A stretch of DNA of 64,000 bases. Source: a virus. Its lineage: Duplodnaviria > Heunggongvirae > Uroviricota > Caudoviricetes. The notes beneath the pieces were generated by a model. It ran no database searches. It was not told the origin of the DNA and saw nothing but the letters and a program-made list of their open reading frames with translations. Shown piece by piece: positions 1-39,493 of the stretch. Numbering within the stretch: the first letter of the stretch is position 1; each line of letters begins with the position of its first letter. The stretch covers positions 1 to 64,000 of the IMG/VR virus record IMGVR_UViG_3300032116_000094. One strand, 5' to 3'. Made by a program: the position numbers and the translations under genes.

Positions 1-177
1 GAAGTATACTATAACTATGAATTTAGAGACAAAATTTGTAAGTTAATTCGTTTAAAAAAGGTTGATTTTGAAATACTTCTGAGCAAATGGGTTGAAGATA
101 CCTTTCAAATGAAGGTTAAGACCATCGCTTCCGAGTATCCTTTCGCCTCAAAGCTGTTGAAGATACCAACCAAATAA
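1..177 (+). CDS. Array-A paralog, 3' partial (5' end upstream of window)
   Basis: In frame from nt 1. Nt 1-128 are identical to 343-470 of unit 190..516. Unique tail AS EYPFASK then LKIPTK*, stop TAA 175-177. Confidence 0.6.
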   Translation, partial: EVYYNYEFRDKICKLIRLKKVDFEILLSKWVEDTFQMKVKTIASEYPFASKLLKIPTK

Positions 178-189
178 AATCCAAATAAC

Positions 190-516
190 ATGAGCAAAGA
201 AGAATATTATAGTAAAATAAAAAAAATTGTTTACCGAAAGTTTGACGAACTGGAAGTGGTTGAACGTAACGATGGAGACGACATATATCTTCATTATAAA
301 AATAATAGATATGCTGAAATCCTAATTAAGAAAAAATCAGGTGAAGTATACTATAACTATGAATTTAGAGACAAAATTTGTAAGTTAATTCGTTTAAAAA
401 AGGTTGATTTTGAAATACTTCTGAGCAAATGGGTTGAAGATACCTTTCAAATGAAGGTTAAGACCATCGACGTAACCGATGTATTGCTCTATTTTCTGGT
501 TGAAGATACCAACTAA
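190..516 (+). CDS. Array-A paralog unit 1 (~108 aa; conserved body + unique C-terminal tail)
   Basis: ORF. N-term MSKEEYYSKIKK. WVEDTFQMKV motif. Tail KTIDVTDVLLYFL then VEDTN*. Confidence 0.7.
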   Translation: MSKEEYYSKIKKIVYRKFDELEVVERNDGDDIYLHYKNNRYAEILIKKKSGEVYYNYEFRDKICKLIRLKKVDFEILLSKWVEDTFQMKVKTIDVTDVLLYFLVEDTN

Positions 517-532
517 ATAAAAACTAAATGAT

Positions 533-862
533 ATGAGCAAAGAAGAATATTATAATAAAATAAAAAAATTAATTTACAGAAAGTTTGATGAACTAGAGGT
601 ATTCAAAAGTACTAATGGAAAGAAAATATATCTTCATTATAAAAATAGTGAATATGCAAATATCCTAATTAATAAAAAATCAGGTGAAGTATACTATCAT
701 TATAATTTTAGAGACAAATTTTTTTATACAATTCGTTTAGAAAATGCTGATTTTCAAATATTCTTGAAAGGATGGATTGAAAATACCTTTCAAATTAAGG
801 TAAGTCACCCTGCTGTAATCCCAAGCCACCTGATTCGTTGGTTGAAGATACCAACTAAATAA
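533..862 (+). CDS. Array-A paralog unit 2
   Basis: ORF. MSKEEYY N-term. Tail SHPAVIPSHLIRW then LKIPTK* (R2 read in a different frame). Confidence 0.7.
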   Translation: MSKEEYYNKIKKLIYRKFDELEVFKSTNGKKIYLHYKNSEYANILINKKSGEVYYHYNFRDKFFYTIRLENADFQIFLKGWIENTFQIKVSHPAVIPSHLIRWLKIPTK

Positions 863-874
863 AATTTAGATAAC

Positions 875-1189
875 ATGAGCAAAGAAGAATATTATAGTAA
901 AATAAAAAGATTCGTTTATAAAAGGTTTAATGAGCTGGAAGTTATTGACCGTAATAATGGAAATTTTTTGTATCTTGGTTATAAAAACAAAGGTTATGCT
1001 GAGATTGTGATCGATAAAAACTCAGGTTTGGTTTACTACTATACTGGATTCAAAGATAAAATTAATAAGATGGTTCCGTTGAAAATGCGTGATTTTGAAA
1101 TTCTTTTGGATAGATGGGTTGAAGATACCTTTAAAATAAAAGTGATCAATACCCTGTGGTACAGTAATTATTCATGGTACCGAATTTGA
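875..1189 (+). CDS. Array-A paralog unit 3
   Basis: ORF. Tail INTLWYSNYSWYRI*. Stop falls inside R2 (third frame). Confidence 0.7.
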   Translation: MSKEEYYSKIKRFVYKRFNELEVIDRNNGNFLYLGYKNKGYAEIVIDKNSGLVYYYTGFKDKINKMVPLKMRDFEILLDRWVEDTFKIKVINTLWYSNYSWYRI

Positions 1190-1218
1190 AGATACATCCC
1201 AAATAAAATTTATATAAC

Positions 1219-1551
1219 ATGAGCAAAGAACAGTATTATAATAAAATAAAAATATTCATTTACAGAAAGTTTGAAGAACTGGAAGTGGTTGAACGTGATA
1301 AAGGAAATGTTTTGTATATTCGTTATAATAATGAAATATATGCCCAGATATTAATTGAAAAAAAATCAGGTAAGGTTTACTACTCTTATAGGTTAAGTAA
1401 AAAAATGTATAAAATAATCCCGTTGGAAACGACTGATTTTGAGTTATTTTTGAGCAAATGGATTGAAAATACTTTTCAAGTGAAGGTAAAACAAATCTTA
1501 CATGGCAAAAAAACACGATCACGTGCTTGGCTAAAAATACCTTTAAAATAA
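1219..1551 (+). CDS. Array-A paralog unit 4
   Basis: ORF. MSKEQYY N-term. First ~90 nt identical to unit 1564..1902. Tail KQILHGKKTRSRAW then LKIPLK. Confidence 0.7.
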   Translation: MSKEQYYNKIKIFIYRKFEELEVVERDKGNVLYIRYNNEIYAQILIEKKSGKVYYSYRLSKKMYKIIPLETTDFELFLSKWIENTFQVKVKQILHGKKTRSRAWLKIPLK

Positions 1552-1563
1552 AATTTAGATAAC

Positions 1564-1902
1564 ATGAGCAAAGAACAGTATTATAATAAAATAAAAATAT
1601 TCATTTACAGAAAGTTTGAAGAACTGGAAGTGGTTGAACGTGATAAAGGAAATTATTTGTATCTTCGTCACAAAAATGACGAATTCGTTCAAATCATGAT
1701 TGATAAAAAATCTAGTTTGGTTTACTACTATACTAAATTCAGAGATAAAATTAATAAGATAGTTCGGTTGGAACAGACTGATTTTGAAATTCTTTTGAAG
1801 AGATGGGTTGAAGATACATTTAAAATAAAGGTGATCAATATCAAGATGAGGTTTTCACGGTGGAGCCCGATGGATGAACATAACTTTAAGATAAAATTTT
1901 AA
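1564..1902 (+). CDS. Array-A paralog unit 5
   Basis: ORF. Tail INIKMRFSRWSPMDEHNF then KIKF. Confidence 0.7.
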   Translation: MSKEQYYNKIKIFIYRKFEELEVVERDKGNYLYLRHKNDEFVQIMIDKKSSLVYYYTKFRDKINKIVRLEQTDFEILLKRWVEDTFKIKVINIKMRFSRWSPMDEHNFKIKF

Positions 1903-1906
1903 TAAA

Positions 1907-2221
1907 ATGAGTAAAGAAGAGTATTATAGTAAAATAAAAAGATTTGTTTACCGAAAGTTTAATGAATTGGAAGTGGTTGAACGTAATCTTGGCGATGCTT
2001 TGTTTCTTCGTTATAATAATGAACCATATGCTCAGATCCGAATTAATATAAAATCGGGTAATGTTTACTATTATCGTAACTTTAGAAACAAATTTATTAA
2101 GGTAATTCATATGGAAAATAGTGATTTTGAAATACTTTTGGGCAAATGGATTGAAGAAACCTTTCAAATTAAGGTTAGCGACATTATACCCCAAAAATAC
2201 ACCATTATACTCATTGATTGA
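1907..2221 (+). CDS. Array-A paralog unit 6
   Basis: ORF. Tail SDIIPQKYTIILID. Confidence 0.7.
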   Translation: MSKEEYYSKIKRFVYRKFNELEVVERNLGDALFLRYNNEPYAQIRINIKSGNVYYYRNFRNKFIKVIHMENSDFEILLGKWIEETFQIKVSDIIPQKYTIILID

Positions 2222-2250
2222 AGATACCTTCCAAATAAAAACTAAGTAAC

Positions 2251-2589
2251 ATGAGCAAAGAAGAATATTATAGTAAAATAAAAAGATTTGTTTACAGAAA
2301 GTTTGATGAACTGGAAGTAACTGAACGTAATAAACGAAATGACTTGTATCTTCATTATAAAAATAACGAATATGCTGAAATCCTAATTAAGAAAAAATCA
2401 GGTGAAGTATACTATAACTATAACTATGAACTTAGTGACAAATTTTTTATGACAATTAATTTAGAAAAGGTTGATTTTGAAATACTTCTGGGCAGATGGG
2501 TTGAAGATACCTTTCAAATGAAGGTGAATCACACCCATGAGTGCGTACTCGTGATCGAGCATATGATGTTGAAGATACCTTTCAAATAA
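2251..2589 (+). CDS. Array-A paralog unit 7
   Basis: ORF. Tail NHTHECVLVIEHMM then LKIPFK. Confidence 0.7.
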   Translation: MSKEEYYSKIKRFVYRKFDELEVTERNKRNDLYLHYKNNEYAEILIKKKSGEVYYNYNYELSDKFFMTINLEKVDFEILLGRWVEDTFQMKVNHTHECVLVIEHMMLKIPFK

Positions 2590-2601
2590 AATTTAGATAA
2601 C

Positions 2602-2937
2602 ATGAGCAAAGAAGAATATTATAGTAAAATAAAAAGATTTGTTTACCGAAAGTTTGACGAACTGGAAGTGATTCATAGTAGTCATAACAATGATTTGTAT
2701 ATTCGCTATAAAAATGATAAATATGCACAGATCGTAATCGGAAAAACAACTGGGTTTATTTTTTATTATTATGAATTTAAAGACAAAATTTGTAATATCA
2801 TTCAGTTGGAAACGCGTGATTTTAAAATACTTTTAGAACGATGGGTTCAAGATACTTTTCAAATAAAAGTGGAGCTCACTGTTAAAATTGATTACATGAG
2901 CGGTCTGCTCGTTGAAGATACCAATAAAATAACTTAA
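2602..2937 (+). CDS. Array-A paralog unit 8
   Basis: ORF. Tail ELTVKIDYMSGLL then VEDTNKIT. Confidence 0.7.
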   Translation: MSKEEYYSKIKRFVYRKFDELEVIHSSHNNDLYIRYKNDKYAQIVIGKTTGFIFYYYEFKDKICNIIQLETRDFKILLERWVQDTFQIKVELTVKIDYMSGLLVEDTNKIT

Positions 2938-2942
2938 ATGAC

Positions 2943-3272
2943 ATGAGTAAAGATAGGTTATATAAAGGAATAAAAAATATCATTTATCGGGAAATTGATT
3001 CGCTGCAAGTTAGCGAACGTAATGATGGAATTTACGTTTATCTTCATTATAAAAATCCTGACCGTGCTCAGATTGTAATTGAAAAAAATTCGGGTTGGGT
3101 TTTCTATTATTATAGATTCAAAGACAAAATTTTTAAGAAAATTCCGCTGGAAAACCGTGATTTTGAAATACTTTTAGAGCAATGGGTTGAAGATAAATTT
3201 CAAATAAAAGTGACCGGCATCTGGAGATCGAAGTTTCTTTCAATGGCTGCATTGAATATACCTCCCAAATAA
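2943..3272 (+). CDS. Array-A paralog unit 9
   Basis: ORF. MSKDRLY N-term. Tail TGIWRSKFLSMAAL then NIPPK. Tail is near-identical to the next unit. Confidence 0.7.
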   Translation: MSKDRLYKGIKNIIYREIDSLQVSERNDGIYVYLHYKNPDRAQIVIEKNSGWVFYYYRFKDKIFKKIPLENRDFEILLEQWVEDKFQIKVTGIWRSKFLSMAALNIPPK

Positions 3273-3284
3273 AAATTAAATGAT

Positions 3285-3614
3285 ATGAGCAAAAAGGAAT
3301 ATTATAGTAAAATAAAAAGATTTGTTTACAGAAGGTTTGATGAACTGGAAGTGGCTGAAGGTGATAATGGGAATATTTTGTGTTTTGGTTATAAAAACAA
3401 AGGTTATGCGGAGATTGTGATCTATAAAAACTCAGGTCGGGTTTTCTATTCTAAAAGATTCAGAGACAAAATTAATAAGATATTTCGGTTTGAAGAGATT
3501 GATTTTAAAATTTTTTTGAAGAAATGGGTTGAAGATAAATTTAAAATAAAAGTGACCGGCGTCTGGATATCGAAGTTTCTTTCAATGGCAGCATTGAATA
3601 TGCCACCCAAATAA
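3285..3614 (+). CDS. Array-A paralog unit 10
   Basis: ORF. Tail TGVWISKFLSMAAL then NMPPK (recent duplicate of unit 9 tail). Confidence 0.7.
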   Translation: MSKKEYYSKIKRFVYRRFDELEVAEGDNGNILCFGYKNKGYAEIVIYKNSGRVFYSKRFRDKINKIFRFEEIDFKIFLKKWVEDKFKIKVTGVWISKFLSMAALNMPPK

Positions 3615-3626
3615 AAATTAAATGAC

Positions 3627-3971
3627 ATGAGTAAAGAAAAATATTACAACAAAATAAAAAGATACATTTACAGAAAGTTTGAGGAACTGGAGGTATTCGA
3701 AAGTAATGATGGAAATTATTTGTATCTTCGTTACAAACATGCTGAATTTGCTAAAATAGTGGTTAATAAAAGCTTACTTAAAGTTTCCTACTATACTGGA
3801 TTCAGAGATAAAATTAATAAGATAGTTCCGTTGGAAAAACGTGATTTTGAAATTCTATTGAAGAGATGGATTAAAGATACATTTCAAATGAAGATGAAAA
3901 ATGCCAACGCGATAAAGTACGCAGAGGTGCTGCTAGTCGTTGAAGATACTTTTAAAATAAAATTTAGATAA
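3627..3971 (+). CDS. Array-A paralog unit 11
   Basis: ORF. Tail KNANAIKYAEVLLV then VEDTFKIKFR (R2 read in frame a through to KFR*). Confidence 0.7.
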   Translation: MSKEKYYNKIKRYIYRKFEELEVFESNDGNYLYLRYKHAEFAKIVVNKSLLKVSYYTGFRDKINKIVPLEKRDFEILLKRWIKDTFQMKMKNANAIKYAEVLLVVEDTFKIKFR

Positions 3972-3972
3972 C

Positions 3973-4296
3973 ATGAGCAAAGAACAGTATTATAATAAAA
4001 TAAAAAGGTACATTTACAGAAAGTTTGATGAACTGGAAGTGATTAATAAAGGAGCTTATGTGTATCTTCGTTATAAAAACGATGATTATGCCGACATCCT
4101 AATTCGAAAAGAATTAGGTTATGTTTACTATTATTCTGGATTTAAAAAGAAAATTATTAATATAACCCGGTTGGAGACACGTGATTTTGAAATACTTCTG
4201 TACAGATGGATTGAAAATACCCTTCAAATAAAGGTTAATGAGATCTATTCTAAGGGTGGAGAAACCTTCGACAGATTTGAGATTCCTTTCAAATAA
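3973..4296 (+). CDS. Array-A paralog unit 12
   Basis: ORF. Tail NEIYSKGGETFDRFE then IPFK. Confidence 0.7.
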   Translation: MSKEQYYNKIKRYIYRKFDELEVINKGAYVYLRYKNDDYADILIRKELGYVYYYSGFKKKIINITRLETRDFEILLYRWIENTLQIKVNEIYSKGGETFDRFEIPFK

Positions 4297-4308
4297 AATT
4301 TTAATGAT

Positions 4309-4638
4309 ATGAAAAAAGAAGAATATTATAATAAAATAAAAAGATTGGTTTATAGAAAGTTTAACGAACTGGAATTGGTTGAACGTAATAATCGAAATGA
4401 GTTGTATCTTCGTTATAAAAATGGTGACTCCGCTCAAATCATGATCAATAAAAACTCAGGTTGGGTTTACTATTTTAGAAGATTCAGATACAAAATTGAT
4501 AACATGATTCGGTTGGAACAGGATGATTTTGAAATACTTCTAACTAAATGGGTTGAAGATACCTTTAAAATAAAGGTGATCAACACCCATTGCACCGGGT
4601 TCGTTCACCAATTTCCGTTGAAGATACCTTTAAAATAA
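4309..4638 (+). CDS. Array-A paralog unit 13 (followed by a second repeat-spacer module)
   Basis: ORF. Tail INTHCTGFVHQFP then LKIPLK. Downstream 4617-4716 holds another full repeat plus an unrelated spacer. Confidence 0.7.
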   Translation: MKKEEYYNKIKRLVYRKFNELELVERNNRNELYLRYKNGDSAQIMINKNSGWVYYFRRFRYKIDNMIRLEQDDFEILLTKWVEDTFKIKVINTHCTGFVHQFPLKIPLK

Positions 4639-4716
4639 AGGTGATCAACACCATACAGCGGCTGTACTCAAATATATTGCAGGTTGAAGATACCCTTCAA
4701 ATAAAATTTAAATAAC
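4552..4716 (+). repeat. Repeat-spacer-repeat-spacer-repeat module at the 3' end of unit 13
   Basis: gttgaagatacctttaaaataaaggtgatcaaca occurs exactly twice (4552-4585, 4617-4650). A degenerate third copy is at 4683-4706. Intervening segments of 31 and 32 nt are unrelated. Confidence 0.85.
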
Positions 4717-5046
4717 ATGAGCAAAGAACAGTATTATAATAAAATAAAAAAATTCGTGTACAGAAAGTTTGACGAACTGGAAGTGAGCAAACGTAATCTT
4801 GGAAACGATATATTTCTTCATTATAACAATGCGAAATATGATCAGATCCTAATTCAAAAAAAATCGGGTTATATTTACTATCAATCTAAATATAGAGATA
4901 AAATTATTAAACCAATAGCATTGGAAAATGTTGATTTTGAAATACTTTTAAAGCGATGGGTTGAAGATACCTTTCAAATGAAAGTTAATGACACCGGGCT
5001 CAAGTATATGAGCAACGCCACAGAGTTAAAGAAACCTCCCAAATAA
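4717..5046 (+). CDS. Array-A paralog unit 14
   Basis: ORF. Tail NDTGLKYMSNATE then LKKPPK. Confidence 0.7.
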   Translation: MSKEQYYNKIKKFVYRKFDELEVSKRNLGNDIFLHYNNAKYDQILIQKKSGYIYYQSKYRDKIIKPIALENVDFEILLKRWVEDTFQMKVNDTGLKYMSNATELKKPPK

Positions 5047-5058
5047 AAATTAAATGAT

Positions 5059-5403
5059 ATGAGTAAAGAAGACTATTACAGCAAAATAAAAAGATACATT
5101 TACAGAAAGTTTGAGGAACTGGAGGTATTTGAAAGTAGTGATGGAAATGAGATATACCTTTATTATAAAGGTGAAAAATATGCTGAGATCCGAGCTAAAA
5201 GAACTGTAGGTGAACTAATCTATTATTATGGGTTTAGCAACAAAATTATTAAGCCAATTCCTATAGAAAATCGTGATTTTGAAATACTTTTGAGGGTATT
5301 TATTGAAGATACATTTCAAATGAAAGTTAATGAAATCTATGGCTGGGATGGACACAAGACTATCACCGCGTTAAGAATACCTTACAGGTTAAAAGATAAC
5401 TGA
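5059..5403 (+). CDS. Array-A paralog unit 15
   Basis: ORF. Tail NEIYGWDGHKTITA then LRIPYRLKDN. Confidence 0.7.
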   Translation: MSKEDYYSKIKRYIYRKFEELEVFESSDGNEIYLYYKGEKYAEIRAKRTVGELIYYYGFSNKIIKPIPIENRDFEILLRVFIEDTFQMKVNEIYGWDGHKTITALRIPYRLKDN

Positions 5404-5404
5404 T

Positions 5405-5737
5405 ATGAATAAAGAAAAATATTATAATAAAATAAAAAAGTACATTTACAGAAAGTTTAATGAATTAGAAGTTATTGAACGTGATAATGGGAACGACATA
5501 TATCTTCGGTATAAAAATGATGATTATGCTAAGATCCTAGTTAAAAGAAATTCAGGTGAAGTAATTTATTATTATAGATTTAGAAGCAAAATTCTTAAGC
5601 CAATCCCTATAGAAAAGCGTGATTTTGAAATACTTTTGAGCAGATGGGTTGAAGATAAATTCAAAATTAAGGTTAACTATATCCTAATTTTGTCTCCAGG
5701 GTCATTCACAATCAGGTTAAAAATACCTCCCAAATAA
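5405..5737 (+). CDS. Array-A paralog unit 16
   Basis: ORF. MNKEKYY N-term. Tail NYILILSPGSFTIR then LKIPPK. Confidence 0.7.
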   Translation: MNKEKYYNKIKKYIYRKFNELEVIERDNGNDIYLRYKNDDYAKILVKRNSGEVIYYYRFRSKILKPIPIEKRDFEILLSRWVEDKFKIKVNYILILSPGSFTIRLKIPPK

Positions 5738-5749
5738 AAATTAAATGAT

Positions 5750-6064
5750 ATGAGAAAAGAAAAATATTATAATATAATAAAAAAGTACATCTACAGAAAG
5801 TTTGATGTACTGGAAGTGGTTAAACGTAATGATGGCAATACTTTGTATCTTCGTTATAAAAATAACGAATATGCTGAAATCATAATTAATAAAAAATTTG
5901 GCGAAGTATACTATTATTCTGAATATAAGAAGAAAATTTGTTATATGATTGGCATTAATCAGGTTGATTTTGAAATACTTTTGAAGAGCTGGGTTGAAGA
6001 AACCTTTCAAATGAAGGTGAGTTACACCTCAGGAAGTTTTGGTGTTAATTGGCTTGTTCGTTGA
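5750..6064 (+). CDS. Array-A paralog unit 17
   Basis: ORF. Tail SYTSGSFGVNWLVR. Confidence 0.7.
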   Translation: MRKEKYYNIIKKYIYRKFDVLEVVKRNDGNTLYLRYKNNEYAEIIINKKFGEVYYYSEYKKKICYMIGINQVDFEILLKSWVEETFQMKVSYTSGSFGVNWLVR

Positions 6065-6093
6065 AGATACCTTTCAAATAAAAATTAAATGAT

Positions 6094-6423
6094 ATGAGCA
6101 AAGAAGAATATTATAGTAAAATAAAAAAAATCATTTACAGAAAGTTTGACGAACTGGAAGTGGTTAAACGTAATAGAGGAAATAATTTGTATCTTCGTTA
6201 TAAAAATGAAGAATACGCTCAGATTCGAATTAATAAAAAATCAGATTTTGTTTACTATTCTTATACTTTAAGTGACAAAATTTGTAAGATATTTCAGTTG
6301 GAAAAGCGTGATTTTGAAATAATCTTAAGGGCCTGGATTGAAGATACCTTTAAAATTAAACAAATACTTATCCAAAGATGTAATGTGCTGCTGTCATCAA
6401 CGTTGTACATACCTTTGAAATAA
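6094..6423 (+). CDS. Array-A paralog unit 18
   Basis: ORF. Tail QILIQRCNVLLSSTLY then IPLK. Confidence 0.7.
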   Translation: MSKEEYYSKIKKIIYRKFDELEVVKRNRGNNLYLRYKNEEYAQIRINKKSDFVYYSYTLSDKICKIFQLEKRDFEIILRAWIEDTFKIKQILIQRCNVLLSSTLYIPLK

Positions 6424-6435
6424 AAATTCAATGAT

Positions 6436-6777
6436 ATGAGCAAAGAAAAGTATTATAATAAAATAAAAAGATTCATTTATAAAAGGTTTAATGAATTGGA
6501 ACTGATTGAACGTAATAATGGAGAGTATTTGTATCTTCGTTATAAAAATGAAGAATACGCTCAAATCAAGATTAATAAAAAATCAGGTAGGGTTCTTTAT
6601 TATTTTAGATTCAGAAACAAAATTTGTAAGACAATTAGTTTGGAAAAGACTGATTTTGAAATACTTCTGAGCAAATGGGTTGAAGATACCTTTCAAATAA
6701 AAATGATCAGCACCGCTGTACGGACACTGAAACAATCAATGTTGGTTGAAAATACCAACCAAATAAAACTTAAATGA
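6436..6777 (+). CDS. Array-A paralog unit 19
   Basis: ORF. Tail ISTAVRTLKQSML then VENTNQIKLK. Confidence 0.7.
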   Translation: MSKEKYYNKIKRFIYKRFNELELIERNNGEYLYLRYKNEEYAQIKINKKSGRVLYYFRFRNKICKTISLEKTDFEILLSKWVEDTFQIKMISTAVRTLKQSMLVENTNQIKLK

Positions 6778-6778
6778 T

Positions 6779-7093
6779 ATGGATAAAGAAGAATATTATA
6801 ATAAAATAAAAAGATTCATTTATAAAAGGTTTAATGAATTGGAAGTGATTGAACATAATAACGGAAATCTTATATATCTTCATTATAAAAATGAAGGTCA
6901 TGTTGAGGTCATAATTCAAAAAGAATTTGGTAGTGTTTTAAATTACTATAAATTCAGACAAAAAATTTGTAAAATGGTTGACTTGAAAGTGGTTGATTTT
7001 GAAATACTTTTGAACAGATGGGTTGAAGATACCTTAAAAATAAAGGTTGTACGCAACTCAGAATTTGACTTTAAAGTTGTGTTTTCTGGTTGA
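6779..7093 (+). CDS. Array-A paralog unit 20
   Basis: ORF. MDKEEYY N-term. Tail VRNSEFDFKVVFSG. Confidence 0.7.
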   Translation: MDKEEYYNKIKRFIYKRFNELEVIEHNNGNLIYLHYKNEGHVEVIIQKEFGSVLNYYKFRQKICKMVDLKVVDFEILLNRWVEDTLKIKVVRNSEFDFKVVFSG

Positions 7094-7122
7094 AGATGCC
7101 TCCAAAATAAAACTTAAATGAT

Positions 7123-7422
7123 ATGGATAAAGAAGAGTATTATAATAAAATAAAAAATTGGGTGTACAGGAAGTTTGATGAGCTTGAACCACACAAAATT
7201 TATAGTGAGGACACAATATGCCTTCGTTATAAAAATAATAAATATACTCAGATCATAATTAACAAAAAATTAGGCGATGTAGTCTATTATACAGACTACA
7301 GAAACAAAATTTGTAAGCCTATTAGATTGCTACGAGATGATTTTGATATCCTTCTGAGCGAATGGATTGAAGATAGATTTAAAATCAAGGTTACTGACAT
7401 GGCCGGTAGATACTTTTTATAG
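7123..7422 (+). CDS. Array-A paralog unit 21
   Basis: ORF. Tail TDMAGRYFL. Confidence 0.65.
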   Translation: MDKEEYYNKIKNWVYRKFDELEPHKIYSEDTICLRYKNNKYTQIIINKKLGDVVYYTDYRNKICKPIRLLRDDFDILLSEWIEDRFKIKVTDMAGRYFL

Positions 7423-7465
7423 TTGATGAACGTTAAATATGCCTCCAAAATAAAACTTAAATAAT

Positions 7466-7804
7466 ATGGATAAAGAAAAATATTATAATAAAATAAAAAA
7501 ATGGATATATGAAAAGTTCAATGGGCTGAATATATATGAAAGTTATAATGGAAGCACAATATATCTTCATTATAAAAATGATGACCAAGTTCAGATCAAA
7601 ATTAGAAAAAATAGTGGCATAATTCAGTATTATAATGGTTTTATGGATAAAATTATTAAACCAATTTCTTTGAATCCTAATGATTTCGAAATACTCCTAG
7701 GCAGATGGGTTGAAGAAAAGTTTAAAACAGATGTTATTCACATCCGGTCTATTGGTGTTGTGCGTGTTCTGTTTGTTGAACATAAATTCAAAAGGAAAAT
7801 TTAA
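7466..7804 (+). CDS. Array-A paralog unit 22
   Basis: ORF. Tail IHIRSIGVVRVLF then VEHKFKRKI. Confidence 0.65.
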   Translation: MDKEKYYNKIKKWIYEKFNGLNIYESYNGSTIYLHYKNDDQVQIKIRKNSGIIQYYNGFMDKIIKPISLNPNDFEILLGRWVEEKFKTDVIHIRSIGVVRVLFVEHKFKRKI

Positions 7805-7815
7805 TTAAATTAATC

Positions 7816-8127
7816 ATGGATAAAGAAAAATTTTATAATAAAATAAAAATTTGGATATACAGAAAGTTTGATGAACTGGAAGTTAGTGAAAGCTCCGATG
7901 GGACAATAATATGCCTTCGTTACAAAGATAATGCTTACATTCAGGTCAGTATTGAAAAAACATACAACCAAATTATCTATAATGCCGCTTTCAGGGACAA
8001 TATTTCTAAGCTGATTCGATTGCAAAAGCGTGACTTTGAAACACTTCTAAGCAATTGGATTAAAAAGACCTTTAAAATGAAAGTGGCCACCATCATTCCG
8101 GGGTATACAGGTACATTATGTTATTGA
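7816..8127 (+). CDS. Array-A paralog unit 23
   Basis: ORF. Tail ATIIPGYTGTLCY. Confidence 0.65.
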   Translation: MDKEKFYNKIKIWIYRKFDELEVSESSDGTIICLRYKDNAYIQVSIEKTYNQIIYNAAFRDNISKLIRLQKRDFETLLSNWIKKTFKMKVATIIPGYTGTLCY

Positions 8128-8162
8128 AAAAACCTTTCAACTAAAAGTTAAATTATAATAAT

Positions 8163-8480
8163 ATGAGTAAAGAAGAATATTATGATAGAATAAAAAAATG
8201 GCTTTATATTAAGTTTGATGAACTGAAAGTAATTGAAAGCCTTAATGGAAATAACTTATTTTTTAAATATAAAAATCAAAAATATTGTGATATACGAATT
8301 CAAAAAAATTCAGGTATAGTTTTTTATTATTATATGTTTAGTGAGAAATTTTTTAACAGGATTCGTTTGAAAGAGGCTGATTTTGAAATAATTCTGAGCA
8401 AATGGATTGAAGATAGATTTAAAATTAAGGTAACTAAAATGGTTAAAAGGATCGTCGGAAGAGAAATCATTGTTGATTGA
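8163..8480 (+). CDS. Array-A paralog unit 24
   Basis: ORF. Tail TKMVKRIVGREIIVD. Confidence 0.65.
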   Translation: MSKEEYYDRIKKWLYIKFDELKVIESLNGNNLFFKYKNQKYCDIRIQKNSGIVFYYYMFSEKFFNRIRLKEADFEIILSKWIEDRFKIKVTKMVKRIVGREIIVD

Positions 8481-8517
8481 TACCTTTCAAGTGATGGCTA
8501 ATAATAAATAATACGGC

Positions 8518-8835
8518 ATGGATAAAGAACAATATTATAATAAAATAAAAAATTGGTTATCTAACAAGCTTGATAAGCTGTACATAATTGAAACCTCTGA
8601 AGGTACTTTATACCTATATAAAAAGAATGATGATTTTCCTCAGCTCCGGATTCATAAAAGTTCAGGCTTAGTTTGTTATTATATTGGATTCGCAAACGAT
8701 CTGCTTAAAAAGGTTCCAATGGGTATTATTGATTTTGAAATAATTCTGGGTGCATATATTGAAGATATTCTTGAAATTAAGGTGACTGTAATTTCCCCCC
8801 TTCCAACGGTGTATGATGTTGATGATAAATTCTAA
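8518..8835 (+). CDS. Array-A paralog unit 25
   Basis: ORF. Divergent body. Tail TVISPLPTVYDVDDKF. Confidence 0.65.
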   Translation: MDKEQYYNKIKNWLSNKLDKLYIIETSEGTLYLYKKNDDFPQLRIHKSSGLVCYYIGFANDLLKKVPMGIIDFEIILGAYIEDILEIKVTVISPLPTVYDVDDKF

Positions 8836-8857
8836 TTAACAGTATAAATATTTAAAT

Positions 8858-9172
8858 ATGGATAAAGAACAATATTATAATAGAATAAAAAAATGGGTTT
8901 ATGGAAAGTTTGATGAACTGGAAGTGATTAAAAGAAAGAAAGGGAGTAACGTGTATCTTCGTTATAAAAATGGCGAATATACTCAGGTTGAAATTGATAA
9001 AAAATTTGGTCATGTTTACTATTATTATGAATTCAGCGAGAAAATTTGTAAACATCTTCGCATTGAAAAGCATGACTTTGAAATACTTTTGAAAAGATGG
9101 GTCGAAGAGACCTTTCAAATGAAGGTGGATAATGTCATAATTTGTGTAGTACGTAGCCGCCCGATAGCTTAA
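8858..9172 (+). CDS. Array-A paralog unit 26
   Basis: ORF. Tail DNVIICVVRSRPIA. Confidence 0.65.
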   Translation: MDKEQYYNRIKKWVYGKFDELEVIKRKKGSNVYLRYKNGEYTQVEIDKKFGHVYYYYEFSEKICKHLRIEKHDFEILLKRWVEETFQMKVDNVIICVVRSRPIA

Positions 9173-9198
9173 TAAAGGTAAACTATAAATCTTTAAAT

Positions 9199-9525
9199 AT
9201 GGATAAAGAGCAATATTATAATAGCATAAAAAAATTGTTATATAAAAAGTTCGACGAGCTAAAATTATATGATAACCCTAATGGGCTTGTAAGTTATTTA
9301 CATTACGATAGAGATGATTACGCTCAGATCCTAATTTTTAAACACACAGGCCGAGTTTTTTATTATCATGGTTTCGCAAAGAAACTTTTTAAGTTTATTC
9401 GACTAGAATATGAAGATTTTGAAATACTCTTGGGTAGATGGGTTGAAGAAAAATTTAAAATACATGTGAAAAGTATCAGACAGACAACAGATGTCCGCAT
9501 ACCTGGTTTTAACTCTAATTTTTAA
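9199..9525 (+). CDS. Array-A paralog unit 27
   Basis: ORF. Tail KSIRQTTDVRIPGFNSNF. Confidence 0.65.
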   Translation: MDKEQYYNSIKKLLYKKFDELKLYDNPNGLVSYLHYDRDDYAQILIFKHTGRVFYYHGFAKKLFKFIRLEYEDFEILLGRWVEEKFKIHVKSIRQTTDVRIPGFNSNF

Positions 9526-9530
9526 ATGGC

Positions 9531-9824
9531 ATGTATAAAGAAAAATATCATAATAGCATAAAAAAATGGGTTTATAGCAAATTTGATGAACTGCACGTAA
9601 TCTCAAACTGTGAAGAAAATTTATATTTCGGTTATAAAAATGATTCTTTTTTTGTTATACGAATTTATAAAGCCACAGGTAATGTTTATTATACACATCG
9701 CTTGAGAGACCTAGTTAGTAAAAAACTTGCCTTAAATATCATTGATTTTGAGATTCTTTTACGTAGATGGATTGAAAGTAAATGTGAAATTAAAATAAAT
9801 AAAATCATTGACCTCCTTTTTTAA
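9531..9824 (+). CDS. Array-A paralog unit 28
   Basis: ORF. MYKEKYH N-term. Short tail NKIIDLLF. Confidence 0.6.
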   Translation: MYKEKYHNSIKKWVYSKFDELHVISNCEENLYFGYKNDSFFVIRIYKATGNVYYTHRLRDLVSKKLALNIIDFEILLRRWIESKCEIKINKIIDLLF

Positions 9825-9870
9825 TTTGTACATATCCCCCCCATTTTAGCTCCCCCAATTTATTTTTAAT

Positions 9871-9904
9871 TATTTGAATTTGTTAATTTTATCCTGTACC
9901 TTTG
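9871..9904 (+). promoter_or_regulatory. Internal Bacteroidetes-type promoter inside array A
   Basis: TTTG at 9873-9876. ~20-nt spacer. TAccTTTG at 9897-9904. ATG at 9914. Preceded by an unusual C-rich tract (9830-9860). Confidence 0.45.
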
Positions 9905-9913
9905 TTCTTTACT

Positions 9914-10219
9914 ATGAACGAAGATAAGCTATATACTATAACTCAAAAATGGTTACAAAGGAAACTTAGTAATCTGGTCGTATCTGAAGATATCGAAAAA
10001 ATATCACTTAAGCGTAAAGGTGATACTGACTCAACTATTGTGATCTATAAAAATCGTAATCTTGTTTGTTATTTAGGAGGATATAGAAATAAACTTACTA
10101 GTATGTTACCAATGAAAATCAGCCTATTTAATTTCTTATTGAAGAATTGGGTTAAAGATAATTATAACATTGAAATAATAGAAGTTTCCTCTAGTGCTAG
10201 CATGTACAATCATGGATAA
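9914..10219 (+). CDS. Array-A paralog, divergent subfamily (no duplicated R2)
   Basis: ORF 9902..10219. Start moved to ATG 9914 (MNEDKLYTI) because a TAccTTTG -7 box lies at 9897-9904. Motif NWVKDNYNIEI. Confidence 0.55.
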   Translation: MNEDKLYTITQKWLQRKLSNLVVSEDIEKISLKRKGDTDSTIVIYKNRNLVCYLGGYRNKLTSMLPMKISLFNFLLKNWVKDNYNIEIIEVSSSASMYNHG

Positions 10220-10553
10220 AGAAAAGCTATATAACATAGCCGGAAAATGGATTAATAATAAGTTCGATACTCTGGTGAAAGAACAAGACAATGAGCCATC
10301 TTGCATTACTCTGTGTTCTTGTCTCAACAATAAGACTATTATTCGAATTTACAAAAGTGATGGTTGTGTATGTTATAACGTAGATTACATGAAAAAAATA
10401 ATTAAGTTATTCCCCATGCAAATCGAAGATTTCGAATTACTGCTAAAAAAATGGGTACAATATAAATTTGATATTAAAGTAACTGAAGTCATAGCTTTTG
10501 ACTTGTTAATAGTTAACCCCCAAGTTAGTTATATGATTTATGCTCAAAGATAA
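10212..10553 (+). CDS. Array-A paralog, divergent subfamily
   Basis: ORF 10194..10553. Family-type start MDKEKLYNIAGKW at 10212. Overlaps previous stop by 8 nt. Confidence 0.55.
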   Translation: MDKEKLYNIAGKWINNKFDTLVKEQDNEPSCITLCSCLNNKTIIRIYKSDGCVCYNVDYMKKIIKLFPMQIEDFELLLKKWVQYKFDIKVTEVIAFDLLIVNPQVSYMIYAQR

Positions 10554-10836
10554 ATTATACCGTGTGGCTCAAAAATGGACCTACAGGAAGTTTAATAACC
10601 TGGGTGTATGGGAATCTGATCATGTTGTAGAACTTCGCCATGACGACGATCCTCGCATTACTATTCACATTTATAAAGAGCTTGAAAGGGTTTTTTATTA
10701 CGAAGATTACATGCAAAGGATCATTAATGTATTCCCCATGCAAATAGAAGACTTCGAATTGCTTTTATGTCAATGGATTGACGAAAAATTTAAAGTTAAA
10801 ATAAATAACATATATAGAATGAGATTCCGGCCATAA
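10540..10836 (+). CDS. Array-A paralog, divergent subfamily
   Basis: ORF. MLKDKLYRVAQKW..QWIDEKFKVKI. Overlaps previous unit by 14 nt. Confidence 0.55.
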   Translation: MLKDKLYRVAQKWTYRKFNNLGVWESDHVVELRHDDDPRITIHIYKELERVFYYEDYMQRIINVFPMQIEDFELLLCQWIDEKFKVKINNIYRMRFRP

Positions 10837-10873
10837 TATGAAGATGTTATATTTATTAAGATAAAAGATTATT

Positions 10874-11179
10874 ATGGATGATAAATTATATCTAGCGGCA
10901 AGAAGGGTTCTTTATAAGAAATTTGATGTGTTGTTCGTGAGAGAAGATGAGGATAAAATAGACCTTAGCCCTTACGACGACGAATATTCTGTAATTAGAA
11001 TATATAAAAAGTTCGGCATTGTTTATTATATGACAGATTTCAAGAAAAAAGTCATTCAAAAATTTCCGGTACCAAACGTTGATTTTGAAATACTTTTAAT
11101 TATGTGGGTCGAACATAAATTCGGAATTAAAGTTAAAAAAGTCAACAGCTACAGTTGGTATTTAAATGCTTTACTTTGA
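10874..11179 (+). CDS. Array-A paralog, divergent subfamily
   Basis: ORF. MDDKLYLAARR..DFEILLIMWVEHKFGIKV. Confidence 0.6.
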   Translation: MDDKLYLAARRVLYKKFDVLFVREDEDKIDLSPYDDEYSVIRIYKKFGIVYYMTDFKKKVIQKFPVPNVDFEILLIMWVEHKFGIKVKKVNSYSWYLNALL

Positions 11180-11221
11180 AGATATATTTCAGGCTATTGA
11201 ATCTTAAAAACATTTGCCAAT

Positions 11222-11521
11222 ATGAGTAAACTAAAATTTTATGTTAAAGCCGGGAGATGGTTTTATAATCAGTTTGAAAAGTTGACAATTGTCACTGAAC
11301 GCAAAGTTTTACATCTTCACACATATATTGATTTTAAATGCGATATTCGAATTTATCTAAATTATGGTGAAGTATTTTACGATGTAAATTATATGCACAA
11401 GTTGTTTAAACTGTTCCCGATATCACAATCCGACTTTGACACTATTTTAGCCAATTGGGTTGAAAATAAATTCAATATAAATGTGCGAATTATCCGGCCA
11501 TTCAATGAATCGGTTTATTAA
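11222..11521 (+). CDS. Array-A paralog, divergent subfamily
   Basis: ORF. ..SDFDTILANWVENKFNINV. Confidence 0.6.
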   Translation: MSKLKFYVKAGRWFYNQFEKLTIVTERKVLHLHTYIDFKCDIRIYLNYGEVFYDVNYMHKLFKLFPISQSDFDTILANWVENKFNINVRIIRPFNESVY

Positions 11522-11530
11522 AATAGTATT

Positions 11531-11830
11531 ATGAGTAAAGAACTATTATATCTTAAAACCAGGAGATGGTTTTACAAGAAATTTGATCAGTTGATTGTGA
11601 CTGTAGATGAAGATAATATAAATCTCAGTAGTAAAGATAATAAATCGAAATTTGTTCGGATTTATATATATGATGATGAGATTTTGGTATATTATTATAT
11701 TAGATTCAAATATCAGTTAACTAAAATAATACCATTAGAAAGATTGGACTTTGAATTTTTCTTGAAAGAATGGATCGAAGATAAATTCGGCCTAAAAATC
11801 GATTATGTATATGAAAGTGATTATAAGTAA
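11531..11830 (+). CDS. Array-A paralog, divergent subfamily
   Basis: ORF. Near-duplicate of 11857..12156. Ends ..WIEDKFGLKIDYVYESDYK. Confidence 0.6.
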   Translation: MSKELLYLKTRRWFYKKFDQLIVTVDEDNINLSSKDNKSKFVRIYIYDDEILVYYYIRFKYQLTKIIPLERLDFEFFLKEWIEDKFGLKIDYVYESDYK

Positions 11831-11856
11831 TATGGCCCAATCAAAGTATATGTTAT

Positions 11857-12156: not shown

Positions 12157-12182
12157 TATGGCCCAATCAAAGTATATGTTAT

Positions 12183-12467: not shown

Positions 12468-12480
12468 GAAACACAGGATC

Positions 12481-12780: not shown

Positions 12781-12819
12781 TCAAAAAATTTTTAAAATTA
12801 AACTAACAAATTAATTATT

Positions 12820-13412: not shown

Positions 13413-13432
13413 AAGAATAAGTTTTAAGTAAT

Positions 13433-36669: not shown

Positions 36670-36685
36670 TAGTTTGTTGTGGTTT

Positions 36686-37582: not shown

Positions 37583-37603
37583 ATTTTTATTTAATAATTT
37601 TTA

Positions 37604-39465: not shown

Positions 39466-39493
39466 AATTTTTTAATACTATATTTATAAATAT

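What the first reader, a model, noticed from the sequence alone, without database searches (positions are those of the whole stretch)
4552..4716. One unit carries repeat-spacer-repeat-spacer-repeat with an exact 34-nt repeat and unrelated 31/32-nt spacers
gttgaagatacctttaaaataaaggtgatcaaca occurs twice with 100% identity (4552-4585 and 4617-4650). A degenerate third copy lies at 4683-4706 before the next ATG (4717). The intervening segments are unrelated: cccattgcaccgggttcgttcaccaatttcc, and ccatacagcggctgtactcaaatatattgcag, which contains an ACAGC-g-GCTGT hairpin. Repeat and spacer sizes and the degenerate terminal repeat match CRISPR geometry. No cas gene is in the window, and the repeat is coding (VEDTFKIKVINT). 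A simple tandem duplication would give similar spacers, which is not what is seen. It is therefore either an insertion-with-duplication event or unequal crossover between R2 of one unit and R1 of another. Either way, the repeats act as modules that move tails between units.
Basis: seen in the sequence. Interest (0 to 1): 0.85.

Follow-up and report, generated by a model that had tools for sequence, protein, structure and literature searches.

The report
Translated repeat-spacer tails in viral genes
The CRISPR-looking repeat-spacer-repeat-spacer-repeat is real, but it is the protein-coding tail of one gene in a roughly 52-copy viral gene family whose members, and more than 1,200 distant relatives, all end in 36-base repeats separated by about 30 bases of unrelated sequence that are gained, lost and swapped as modules.

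Summary
A 36-nt repeat is exact at 4552-4587 and 4617-4652, and a degenerate copy lies at 4683-4716. The spacers are 29 and 30 nt and unrelated. The sequence is identical in 8 independent assemblies.

It is not special to unit 13. All 29 plus-arm units examined and 6 minus-arm units of this tandem family, in a large uncultivated virus (probably a jumbo phage), end in repeat(36)-spacer(28-33)-terminal repeat. Three units carry two spacers.

Every CRISPR test that could be run failed:
- No cas gene, no Rfam repeat family, no matching repeat in 185,579 genomes, and no protospacers.
- The spacers are kept free of stop codons in the gene's frame (1 of 29 has one; 12.4 expected).
- The repeat encodes the end of a confidently folded domain.

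Distant homologs (HHalign probability 96%) carry 2-9 such modules in frame. In these, 96% of spacers are exactly 10 aa. Related arrays share distal spacers in colinear order and differ mostly next to the gene body.

Best explanation: a modular hypervariable C-terminal tail whose repeats act as recombination handles. Unit 13 joins two tail modules, and the second is silent because spacer A shifts the frame.

Unexplained: spacer GC is 41-44%, the same at all codon positions, against 27-31% in the gene bodies. A dedicated insertion mechanism is not excluded.

The parts
1..13125 (+). Tandem array of 38 complete units plus one partial unit of a roughly 100-114 aa ORFan gene family (unit about 342 nt). 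With upstream units seen in L001/L002/L012, the family has about 52 copies in two divergent arms.
   Evidence: no Pfam or NCBIfam family; AlphaFold mean pLDDT 87 for unit 13
4309..4638 (+). ORF of unit 13 (109 aa): conserved alpha/beta domain, then VEDTFKIKVINT (repeat copy 1), tail HCTGFVHQFP (spacer A), then LKIPLK* read from repeat copy 2 in a shifted frame.
4552..4587 (+). Repeat copy 1 (36 nt), in frame. It encodes residues 82-93, from the end of helix a3 to the start of strand b5.
4588..4616 (+). Spacer A (29 nt, GC 52%). It is translated as the variable tail, and its length shifts the frame of what follows.
   Evidence: no other copy in the window, held loci or IMG/VR
4617..4652 (+). 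Repeat copy 2 (36 nt), 100% identical to copy 1. It is read as LKIPLK*, with stop TAA at 4636-4638.
4653..4682 (+). Spacer B (30 nt), a silent, untranslated second tail module. It is open in the frame set by copy 2.
   Evidence: only chance-level 21-nt matches in metagenomes
4683..4716 (+). Terminal degenerate repeat R' (22 of the first 23 nt match). It abuts the ATG of unit 14 at 4717 and carries stop codons in all three frames.
433..8157 (+). The 3' ends of units 1-23 lie in this span. Each has R (always in frame) followed 64-69 nt later by R'. R' is read in frame 0 (VEDT..), frame +2 (LKIPxK*) or frame +1 (immediate TGA), depending on spacer length (28-33 nt).
91..189 (+). R-S-R' of the partial unit 0 at the window edge. 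This unit is absent from the 277-kb assembly L001.

Best explanation
The feature is the 3' end of gene 13 in a tandem family of small viral proteins.

Architecture. Each protein has a conserved alpha/beta domain of about 81 residues. Its last 12 codons, W-VEDTF(K/Q)IKVxxx, form a 36-nt repeat R. Next comes a variable segment S of about 30 nt, translated as a roughly 10-residue tail. Last comes a second, decaying copy of R (R'), which ends at the next gene's ATG. In distant relatives the same R+S module is iterated 2-9 times in frame. The family therefore has a modular tail: a constant 12-residue segment alternating with a hypervariable 10-residue segment.

How unit 13 arose (inferred). The repeats are the only homology inside the tail, so they serve as recombination handles. 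Gene conversion or crossover tracts that start in the conserved body stop at the heterologous S. Tracts that span R to R' move a whole tail. Out-of-register pairing of an R' with an R adds or deletes modules. Unit 13 would be an out-of-register product: the R' of one unit recombined with the R of the next, deleting about 277 nt of gene body and leaving R-A-R-B-R'.

Consequence. Spacer A is 29 nt, so translation leaves the frame and stops in copy 2. Tail B is a silent cassette. A 65-nt R x R deletion would fuse it to the body in frame.

Shown versus inferred.
- Shown: the architecture, that the tail is translated, the mosaic pattern, and module gain and loss in relatives.
- Inferred: that homologous recombination alone generates the modules, and that the variable tails are specificity or evasion peptides in virus-host conflict.
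For: 1. Universality. R(36)-S(28-33)-R' occurs in 29 plus-arm and 6 minus-arm units, and three units have two spacers.
2. Coding. Only 1 of 29 first spacers has a stop in the gene's frame, against 12.4 expected and a minimum of 5 in 2000 shuffles. The other five frames carry stops in 9-14 spacers. The AlphaFold model (mean pLDDT 87) places R at the end of helix a3 running into strand b5.
3. Mosaicism. u0/u1 have the 3' body half and R 100% identical but a random-level spacer. u-3/u-2 have R and R' 100% identical and unrelated spacers. u9/u10 have tails 93% identical but bodies only 68-74%. Contig L011 joins the u19 body to the u0 tail, with the crossover inside the shared block that includes R.
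4. Copy number. Unit number differs between assemblies: u0, u-2 and u4 are absent in some, and L012 has an extra unit whose spacer carries an 11-nt deletion.
5. Homology. The window family and the VEEVLNxKVxTT family align at HHalign probability 96.3%, E 1.5e-9, with R aligned to R.
6. Relatives. Among the 120 best of 1236 homologs, 480 of 499 spacers are exactly 10 aa, with 2-7 spacers per protein. Syntenic genes in genomes whose flanks are about 88% identical share two spacers at 28/30 and 29/30 nt, while the other spacers are unrelated and differ in number. Shared spacers are colinear in 40 of 41 array pairs.
7. A parallel case. L044 gene 1 has a frameshifted repeat, then a stop, then a silent spacer and a terminal repeat, just as in unit 13.
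8. Unrelated spacers exclude a simple 65-nt tandem duplication.
Against: 1. No strain was found with an intact gene body between spacers A and B. All 8 assemblies already carry the double.
2. Spacer composition is not what a fast-evolving tail in an AT-rich genome should show. GC is 44% and flat across codon positions (0.45/0.42/0.45), against 27% in bodies (GC3 0.27). In relatives it is 41.5% and flat, against 31%. R', which is decaying, has fallen to 22% GC.
3. Spacer length is held to 28-33 nt here and to exactly 30 nt in 96% of cases in relatives. Lengths of 27 or 33 nt would also keep the frame.
4. Turnover looks polar. The body-proximal spacer is shared in 31% of related array pairs and the distal-most in 58%. 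Repeats are most alike near the body and degenerate distally. This resembles polarised addition. Conversion tracts that start in the body could also produce it.
5. Recombination only redistributes spacers. It does not explain where thousands of unrelated spacers come from.
6. The unit copy-number differences and L011 could be assembly collapse of near-identical repeats.
Confidence: 0.55

Rival explanations
1. Active, ruler-based insertion. An integrase-like or templated process adds one 36-nt repeat copy plus about 30 nt of non-genomic sequence next to the gene body, as in CRISPR adaptation or ectopic 'neo-CRISPR' integration. Unit 13 is then a unit that has acquired a second spacer, and recombination only deletes modules.
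For: - Three independent units show an exactly or nearly identical 36-nt duplication with a new 29-31-nt insert.
- Spacer length is tightly held: 28-33 nt here, and exactly 30 nt in 96% of 499 spacers in relatives.
- Spacer composition is flat at 41-44% GC and unlike the genome.
- Turnover is biased toward the body-proximal end and the terminal repeats are degenerate.
- Off-target Cas1-Cas2 integration is discussed in the literature (titles listed; the papers were not read).
Against: - No cas, integrase or reverse-transcriptase gene was found among about 45 ORFs tested in the window and its flank. The precomputed Pfam annotation of the 10-kb flanks of relatives shows none either.
- The repeat is absent from 185,579 genomes and from Rfam.
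- No source sequence was found for any tested spacer.
- Spacers are depleted of in-frame stops, which needs additional selection after insertion.
- There is no turnover among 8 assemblies of this virus.
- R is an ancestral coding segment: units 24-38, most of which have no recognisable R', keep the motif at the protein level.
Confidence: 0.18
2. Ordinary protein tandem repeat. The 22-residue repeat units diverge only by point mutation under diversifying selection, without module exchange.
For: - The tail is translated, and homologs have an in-frame 22-aa period.
- Some spacer pairs do diverge by point changes: u-4/u2 differ at about a quarter of positions (76% identity) and u9/u10 at 2 of 29.
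Against: - In syntenic genes of genomes about 88% identical, shared spacers are 93-97% identical while neighbouring spacers are unalignable and differ in number.
- Proteins with almost identical bodies differ by whole spacers, for example P0119, P0133 and P0156.
- Flanks that are 100% identical surround unrelated spacers.
- GC3 of the spacers does not match the genome.
Confidence: 0.08
3. A genuine CRISPR mini-array, or an RNA decoy of a host CRISPR repeat, carried by the virus and used with host Cas proteins.
For: - 36-nt repeats, about 30-nt unique spacers and a degenerate last repeat.
- The FKIKV variant of the repeat contains the palindrome ACCTTTAaaaTAAAGGT.
- The repeat starts with GTTG and contains CAAC, which I recall as typical of Bacteroidota type II-C and VI-B repeats. 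That is memory, not a test.
Against: - Repeats and spacers lie inside ORFs, and the spacers are selected to stay open.
- The palindrome and the CAAC are absent from the other repeat variants.
- There is no Rfam CRISPR-DR hit at E up to 10.
- The exact 26-mer has 0 hits in 185,579 genomes. A loose version of the same shape gave 20 single hits, about the roughly 17 I estimate by chance from the collection size, and no arrays.
- No cas genes were found and no protospacers.
- The arrays are interrupted by 243-nt gene bodies.
Confidence: 0.03
4. Programmed translational bypass or frameshift. Ribosomes take off in R and land on the matching codons of R', skipping the spacer, as in T4 gene 60 or the mitochondrial 'byp' elements. 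That would explain why R' is conserved whatever its frame.
For: - R and R' share 23 nt, and R' is conserved as DNA in all three frames.
- In its own frame R' is usually open and ends 1 nt before the next ATG (read from the sequences printed).
- The spacers are richer in GC than their surroundings.
Against: - The spacers lack the stop codon that drives take-off, and they are kept open in frame.
- The spacers have no excess structure.
- In relatives all modules are simply in frame and translated.
- The LK[IV]P ending, which is the frame +2 reading of R', is conserved at the protein level in distant homologs.
Confidence: 0.03

Closest known systems
CRISPR arrays (including virus-borne mini-arrays and ectopic 'neo-CRISPR' integration)
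   Same: - 36-nt direct repeats, unique spacers of about 30 nt, n spacers with n+1 repeats, and a degenerate last repeat.
- In relatives: colinear shared spacers, a conserved distal end and a variable proximal end, and loss of single modules.
   Different: - The repeats and spacers are protein-coding and translated.
- The repeat is the 3' end of a conserved domain.
- No cas genes, no repeat family in Rfam or in genomes, and no protospacers.
- In the window the 'array' restarts after every 243-nt gene body.
Cassette systems that swap variable ends through short conserved homology (orphan toxin-immunity modules of CDI/Rhs loci, pilE/pilS, vlsE silent cassettes). This comparison rests on my own knowledge.
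   Same: - A conserved sequence precedes each variable module and acts as a recombination handle.
- Silent downstream modules, like spacer B, can replace the expressed one.
- The result is mosaic genes.
   Different: - The modules are only 10 residues long.
- There is no toxin, pilin or lipoprotein domain.
- The handle is repeated within one ORF, and many complete genes sit in tandem.
- No dedicated recombinase is known.
Tandem-repeat proteins with constant and variable parts (leucine-rich repeats and lamprey VLRs, TAL effectors, streptococcal M proteins). This comparison rests on my own knowledge.
   Same: - A fixed period (22 aa) with a conserved segment and a variable segment.
- Repeat number varies between alleles.
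- The repeats evolve in concert.
   Different: - The variable segment is a contiguous 10-residue block that is completely unalignable between units, and its codon composition is flat.
- The repeat region has no confident predicted structure (pLDDT below 40).
MIMIVIRE-type repeats inside a giant-virus ORF. This comparison rests on my own knowledge.
   Same: Short repeats within a viral ORF that invited a CRISPR-like reading, with a protein-level reading as the alternative.
   Different: In MIMIVIRE the repeated element itself matches a virophage. Here the repeats are the gene's own coding motif, and the unique parts match nothing found so far.

Membership tests
CRISPR array | Three or more near-identical direct repeats of 23-55 nt, regularly spaced by unique spacers of similar size | tested here: met
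   Repeats of 36, 36 and 34 nt with spacers of 29 and 30 nt. This is a match of geometry only.
CRISPR array | Non-coding locus transcribed and processed into crRNAs | tested here: not met
   The repeat and spacer lie in ORF 4309-4638. Only 1 of 29 spacers has an in-frame stop, against 12.4 expected. R maps to helix a3 and strand b5 of a model with mean pLDDT 87. RNA processing itself cannot be tested here.
CRISPR array | cas genes in cis or elsewhere in the genome | tested here: inconclusive
   About 45 ORFs of the 64-kb window and its flank gave no cas hit in Pfam or PADLOC. The remaining roughly 200 kb of the 277-kb contig could not be fetched.
CRISPR array | The repeat belongs to a repeat family seen in canonical arrays | tested here: not met
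   Rfam gave no match at E up to 10. The 26-mer has 0 hits in 185,579 genomes. The loose pattern gave 20 single hits, about the roughly 17 I estimate by chance, and no arrays.
CRISPR array | Spacers match mobile elements (protospacers) | tested here: not met
   38 spacers against 50,697 phage records gave no match. IMG/VR scans of 4 spacers gave none. One metagenome scan gave two 21-nt matches at chance level. The collection scans needed exact words, so the test is weak.
CRISPR array | Strain-to-strain spacer turnover biased toward the leader end | tested here: inconclusive
   There is none in this virus: 8 assemblies are identical. In distant homologs the proximal spacer is shared in 31% of array pairs and the distal-most in 58%. 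The pairs are not independent.
Tandem multigene family under concerted evolution and unequal crossover | Head-to-tail paralogs with mosaic identity tracts and copy-number variation | tested here: met
   About 52 units. Tract pattern. Unit differences between assemblies, which could partly be assembly collapse.
Tandem-repeat protein with a hypervariable insert (the VEEVLNxKVxTT family found here) | Homologous N-terminal domain followed by modules of a 12-aa repeat plus about 10 variable aa | tested here: met
   HHalign probability 96.3%, with R aligned to R. The window units carry 1-2 modules and the relatives 2-9.
Diversity-generating retroelement | Template repeat and variable repeat pair differing at adenines, with a nearby reverse transcriptase | tested here: not met
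   The spacers cannot be aligned to one another or to anything in the window. No reverse-transcriptase domain was found in the ORFs tested.
Programmed translational bypass (T4 gene 60 type) | Matched take-off and landing codons, a stop after take-off, and a structured gap | tested here: not met
   Matching codons exist (R and R'), but there is no stop after R and no excess structure. Ribosome behaviour cannot be tested here.

The most novel reading that the evidence does not exclude
The repeat-spacer tails are built by a dedicated, polarised process with a length ruler. It duplicates the 36-nt repeat next to the gene body and inserts about 30 nt of sequence that does not come from the viral genome. 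The result is a heritable array that is translated into a string of unique 10-residue peptides: a virus-encoded, protein-level counterpart of CRISPR adaptation, or a peptide library generator. Unit 13, u-1 and m5 would be units caught after a second acquisition.
Probability: 0.15. Interest if true: 0.95.

Novelty: new variant of a known kind. Interest (0 to 1): 0.6.

Why it matters
As a CRISPR candidate the finding fails. That is useful in itself, because CRISPR finders that rely on dissimilar spacers would call these loci.

What remains is an undescribed and widespread architecture. More than 1,200 protein clusters from large aquatic viruses have it, there is no Pfam family for them, and the motif is absent from the searched literature. 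In these genes a coding 36-nt repeat alternates with unrelated 30-nt segments whose composition looks random. The modules turn over with CRISPR-like colinearity and polarity.

If recombination alone explains this, it is a clean natural example of cassette shuffling that generates peptide diversity in viruses. If it does not, there is an unknown sequence-insertion mechanism to find. Both outcomes are testable with existing metagenomes.

Tried and rejected
1. Assembly artefact. Rejected: the region is identical in 8 assemblies.
2. Structured RNA or terminator in the spacers. Rejected: summed MFE equals that of shuffles, z = 0.17.
3. R' as a sigma-70 promoter. Promoter-like sites are not enriched (104 against 87.6 +/- 9.6) and none maps to R'.
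4. R' as the upstream signal of each gene. The first unit of the plus arm has no R' before its ATG.
5. Unusual synonymous-site conservation in R. Per-codon entropies in R equal those of the body.
6. Mimicry of a host CRISPR repeat. Nothing was found in genomes or Rfam.
7. Spacers copied from the virus's own genome. No match of 17 nt or more in 51 kb of window or in the loci of relatives.
8. Population variation in spacer number in this virus. None was seen. L010 looked variant, but its gaps are runs of N. L003 has two microhomology deletions unrelated to R.
10. Structure of the repeat tail. The model is low-confidence, pLDDT below 40.
11. High tail GC as a property of R-S-R' only. Tails of units 24-38, most of which have no recognisable R', are also raised (36.5% against 28%), so the effect is partly a property of the tail itself.
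12. Literature search for the motif and for coding CRISPR-like arrays. Nothing relevant was found.
Full report
**1. The observation**

- The exact repeat is 36 nt rather than 34: GTTGAAGATACCTTTAAAATAAAGGTGATCAACACC at 4552-4587 and again at 4617-4652.
- With 36-nt repeats the spacers are 29 nt (4588-4616) and 30 nt (4653-4682). They are unrelated.
- The third copy (4683-4716) matches 22 of its first 23 nt, then diverges, and ends at the ATG of the next gene (4717).
- A 23-nt core pattern with up to 3 mismatches occurs 31 times in the window against none in 100 shuffles. All matches are on the + strand between 91 and 9123.
- Window 4290-4730 is 100% identical in seven other contigs assembled independently from different samples. 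The structure is real and fixed in this virus.

**2. Context**

Gene array.
- Window 1-13125 is a head-to-tail array of 38 complete genes of about 100-114 aa, with a unit length of about 342 nt.
- The array continues upstream of the window. A second arm points the other way, behind a 210-aa ORFan gene. In total there are about 52 paralogs.

Source.
- The window is 100% identical to a JGI contig over 15 kb. It is 99.7% identical to part of a 277,584-nt ENA contig.
- Part of the locus lies on a 103-kb IMG/VR viral contig.
- GC is about 30%.
- Neighbouring genes include ThyX, a metallophosphatase, an SLT transglycosylase, DUF932, an SPFH protein and a tRNA-Met. Some match PHROG families and proteins of jumbo and Flavobacterium phages.
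- I take it to be a large uncultivated virus, probably a jumbo phage.

The protein family.
- It has no Pfam or NCBIfam model.
- An AlphaFold model of unit 13, built with the 38 paralogs as the alignment, is confident (mean pLDDT 87). The order of elements is a1, b1-b4, a2, a3 (residues 71-86), b5 (92-96).

**3. The repeat-spacer tail is the rule, not an exception**

In each of the 29 plus-arm units u-5 to u23 and in 6 units of the other arm, the last 12 codons of the conserved domain form a 36-nt block R. These codons read W-VEDTF(K/Q)(I/M)KVxxx and are always in frame. After R comes a segment S of 28-33 nt. After S comes a second copy R' that abuts the next ATG. The S lengths are 1x28, 10x29, 9x30, 5x31, 5x32 and 1x33.

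R' shares its first 23 nt with R. In some classes the similarity extends over most of the 36 nt.

Because S varies in length, R' is read differently in different units:
- in frame 0 it reads VEDT..IK..*;
- in frame +2 it reads LKIPxK*;
- in frame +1 it gives an immediate TGA.

R' has stops in all three frames.

Three units have two spacers:
- unit 13 (this finding);
- u-1, just upstream of the window, with a different R variant duplicated exactly over 36 nt;
- m5 in the other arm, where the two copies are 35/36 identical.

In all three, translation stops in the middle repeat, so the second spacer is silent.

**4. Is it CRISPR?**

Only the geometry fits. Against it:
- About 45 ORFs of the window and its flank give no cas or defence hit.
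- Rfam gives nothing at E up to 10.
- The repeat 26-mer is absent from 185,579 species-representative genomes.
- A loose version of its shape gave 20 single matches, about the roughly 17 I estimate by chance from the collection size, and no arrays.
- 38 spacers find nothing in 50,697 phage records. Spacers A and B are absent from IMG/VR.
- One metagenome scan returned two unrelated contigs that share only 21 nt with spacer B, about what chance predicts.
- The spacers do not match the rest of the window.
- The spacers are translated. Only 1 of 29 first spacers has a stop in the gene's frame, against 12.4 expected (minimum 5 in 2000 shuffles). The other five frames have stops in 9-14 spacers.
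- R encodes the end of helix a3 and the start of strand b5.

The spacers have no excess RNA structure (z = 0.17). R is no more conserved at synonymous sites than the rest of the gene. R' is not a promoter-like site. The first gene of the arm has no R' in front of it.

**5. Evidence for recombination at the repeats**

Pairwise identities by segment show mosaics.
- u0/u1 are 100% identical over the 3' half of the body and R, yet their spacers are at random level (0.57; shuffles average 0.50).
- u-3/u-2 have R and R' both 100% identical, and unrelated spacers of different length.
- u9/u10 share R-S-R' (93% spacer identity), while their bodies are only 68-74% identical.

So the body and the tail have separate histories, and the boundaries lie at the edges of S.

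Assemblies also differ by whole units. u0 is missing from L001, u-2 from L009 and u4 from L010. L012 has an extra unit whose spacer carries an 11-nt deletion. One contig joins the u19 body to the u0 tail within the shared block that includes R. Some of these differences could be assembly collapse.

In this setting, pairing of an R' with the R of the next unit deletes about 277 nt of gene body and gives exactly R-A-R-B-R'. The register is automatic, because the left edge of the middle repeat is an S/R' junction and its right edge is an R/S junction.

I could not find the ancestral state, that is, a body between A and B. The alternative of insertion with duplication of R therefore remains open.

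**6. The wider family**

An exhaustive profile search with the 38 paralogs found only 73 representative sequences. One of them (P0072) led to a much larger group: 1,236 proteins at E of 1e-3 or better.

These proteins have a homologous N-terminal domain. HHalign gives probability 96.3% and E 1.5e-9, with the window's WVEDTFKIKVINT aligned to WVEEVLNCKVTTT. The domain is followed by an in-frame string of [12-aa repeat VEEVLN.KV.TT][10 variable aa] and ends in a degenerate repeat.

Repeat and spacer structure.
- Among the 120 best homologs, my parser found 2-7 spacers per protein. Two genes in IMG/VR contig L047 have 8 and 9 repeats, so 7-8 spacers each.
- 480 of 499 spacers are exactly 10 aa, and 358 of those 480 are distinct.
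- At DNA level the repeats next to the body are nearly identical and identity falls toward the distal end. Examples: 1.00, 0.97, 1.00, 0.81, 0.56; and 1.00, 0.92, 0.89, 0.94, 0.86, 0.89, 0.78, 0.69, 0.78.

Turnover between related genomes.
- Syntenic genes in two genomes with flanks about 88% identical share two spacers (28/30 and 29/30 nt) in the same order. They differ by unrelated spacers and in spacer number.
- Proteins with almost identical bodies differ by single whole spacers, for example P0119, P0133 and P0156.
- Over 104 array pairs that share some but not all spacers, the body-proximal spacer is shared in 31% and the distal-most in 58%. Order is colinear in 40 of 41 pairs with two or more shared spacers. 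The pairs are not independent, so this is suggestive only.

Other points.
- One relative (L044 gene 1) has a frameshifted repeat, then a stop, then a silent spacer and a terminal repeat. That is the same state as unit 13.
- Other distant homologs end in L(K/R)(I/V)P.., which is the frame +2 reading of R' in the window.
- The repeat tail has no confident predicted structure (pLDDT below 40).
- These genes sit in viral contigs of 126 and 208 kb.
- No Pfam family fits them, and the motif does not occur in the searched literature.

**7. What remains unexplained**

Spacer composition.
- In the window, GC is 44% and flat across codon positions (0.45/0.42/0.45). Bodies are at 27% (0.35/0.20/0.26), and R' has decayed to 22%.
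- In relatives, spacers are at 41.5% and flat (0.43/0.40/0.42), against 31% in bodies.
- Tails of units 24-38, most of which have no recognisable R', are also raised (36.5% against 28%).

The spacers therefore look like near-random sequence filtered only for the absence of stops. They are not the AT-rich sequence expected from a freely drifting tail.

Together with the fixed 30-nt length and the apparent polarity, this keeps a dedicated insertion or diversification mechanism alive. I put it at 0.15-0.2. Recombination redistributes spacers but does not create them.

**8. Verdict**

- The CRISPR reading is rejected.
- Unit 13 is a two-module instance of a family-wide, translated repeat-spacer tail.
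- The most likely origin is out-of-register recombination between repeats (confidence about 0.55). The second tail is silent.
- Function (inferred): display of hypervariable C-terminal peptides on a small conserved domain, diversified by cassette exchange, presumably in virus-host conflict.
- I found no prior description of the architecture. I rate it a new variant of a known kind (modular, recombination-shuffled repeat proteins) and of moderately high interest.

Noticed in passing
window 35743-45127 (- strand): A second tandem array: ten ORFs of about 300-319 aa that are distant paralogs of one another (24-34% identity between neighbours). One of them was scanned and gave no Pfam, PHROG or PADLOC hit. 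The adjacent ORF 34872-35696 is unrelated; its C-terminus (GGGIGLTRL) looks like a class II aminoacyl-tRNA synthetase or AsnA motif, from memory.
   Followed up: partly
L001 5064-5473 and L002 1-201 (just upstream of window position 1): Unit u-1 has the same R-S-R-S-R' structure as unit 13, with a different repeat variant (gttgaagatacctttcaaatgaaggtgaatcacacc, twice and exact) and spacers of 31 and 30 nt. Its ORF stops at the start of the middle repeat.
   Followed up: yes
L012 5456-5625 (equals the L001 minus arm): A third double unit (m5) lies in the divergently oriented arm of the array. Its two repeat copies are 35/36 identical and its spacers are 31 and 30 nt.
   Followed up: yes
window 1-189 against L001 5285-5473; also L009, L010, L012: Assemblies differ by whole units. 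Unit 0 is absent from the 277-kb contig, u-2 from L009 and u4 from L010. L012 has an extra unit whose spacer is a copy with an 11-nt internal deletion (32 nt reduced to 21). This is either real copy-number polymorphism or collapse of near-identical repeats by the assemblers.
   Followed up: partly
L011 1079-1704: A short NCBI metagenome contig joins the body of unit 19 to the tail of unit 0 and the start of unit 1. The switch lies inside an identical stretch of about 47 nt (DFEILLSKWVEDTFQ). The contig then runs into unrelated sequence. It is either a recombinant or a chimeric assembly.
   Followed up: partly
L035 2354-3490; L044 3198-4341; L047 393-2073: In other large viral genomes, distant homologs occur singly or as adjacent pairs with 3-8 in-frame repeat-spacer modules. 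L044 gene 1 carries a silent module after a frameshifted repeat.
   Followed up: yes
window 13151-13182: A strong terminator-like hairpin (13 pairs followed by a T run, on the - strand) lies between the end of the array (13125) and the convergent ORF 13206-13463.
   Followed up: no
L012 6360-6749, 8235-9640 and 10406-11353: Beyond the minus arm lie a 129-aa Trp/Gly-rich repeat protein (GIWKHGIWENGIWDGGFW...) and two more small tandem paralog families (159/146/152 aa and 158/152 aa). This genome is rich in tandem paralog arrays.
   Followed up: no
window 50551-50623 (-), 45973-46662 (-), 47806-48414 (-), 53372-53971 (+), 59152-59919 (-), 20965-21843 (-), 51315-52511 (-): Recognisable genes in an otherwise ORFan window: tRNA-Met, ThyX, a calcineurin-like phosphoesterase, an SLT transglycosylase, DUF932 (homologs in jumbo phages and a Flavobacterium phage), an SPFH/Band 7 protein and a WD40 protein.
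   Followed up: partly
L003 6168-6176 and 8564-8566 (equal to window 6234-6376 and 8774-8894): One JGI contig has two deletions (142 and 120 nt) relative to the window, at very short microhomologies. Neither involves R or R'.
   Followed up: partly
window 58722-58737: A 16-nt exact match to the AT-rich spacer of unit u-5. It is probably chance, given the composition.
   Followed up: no
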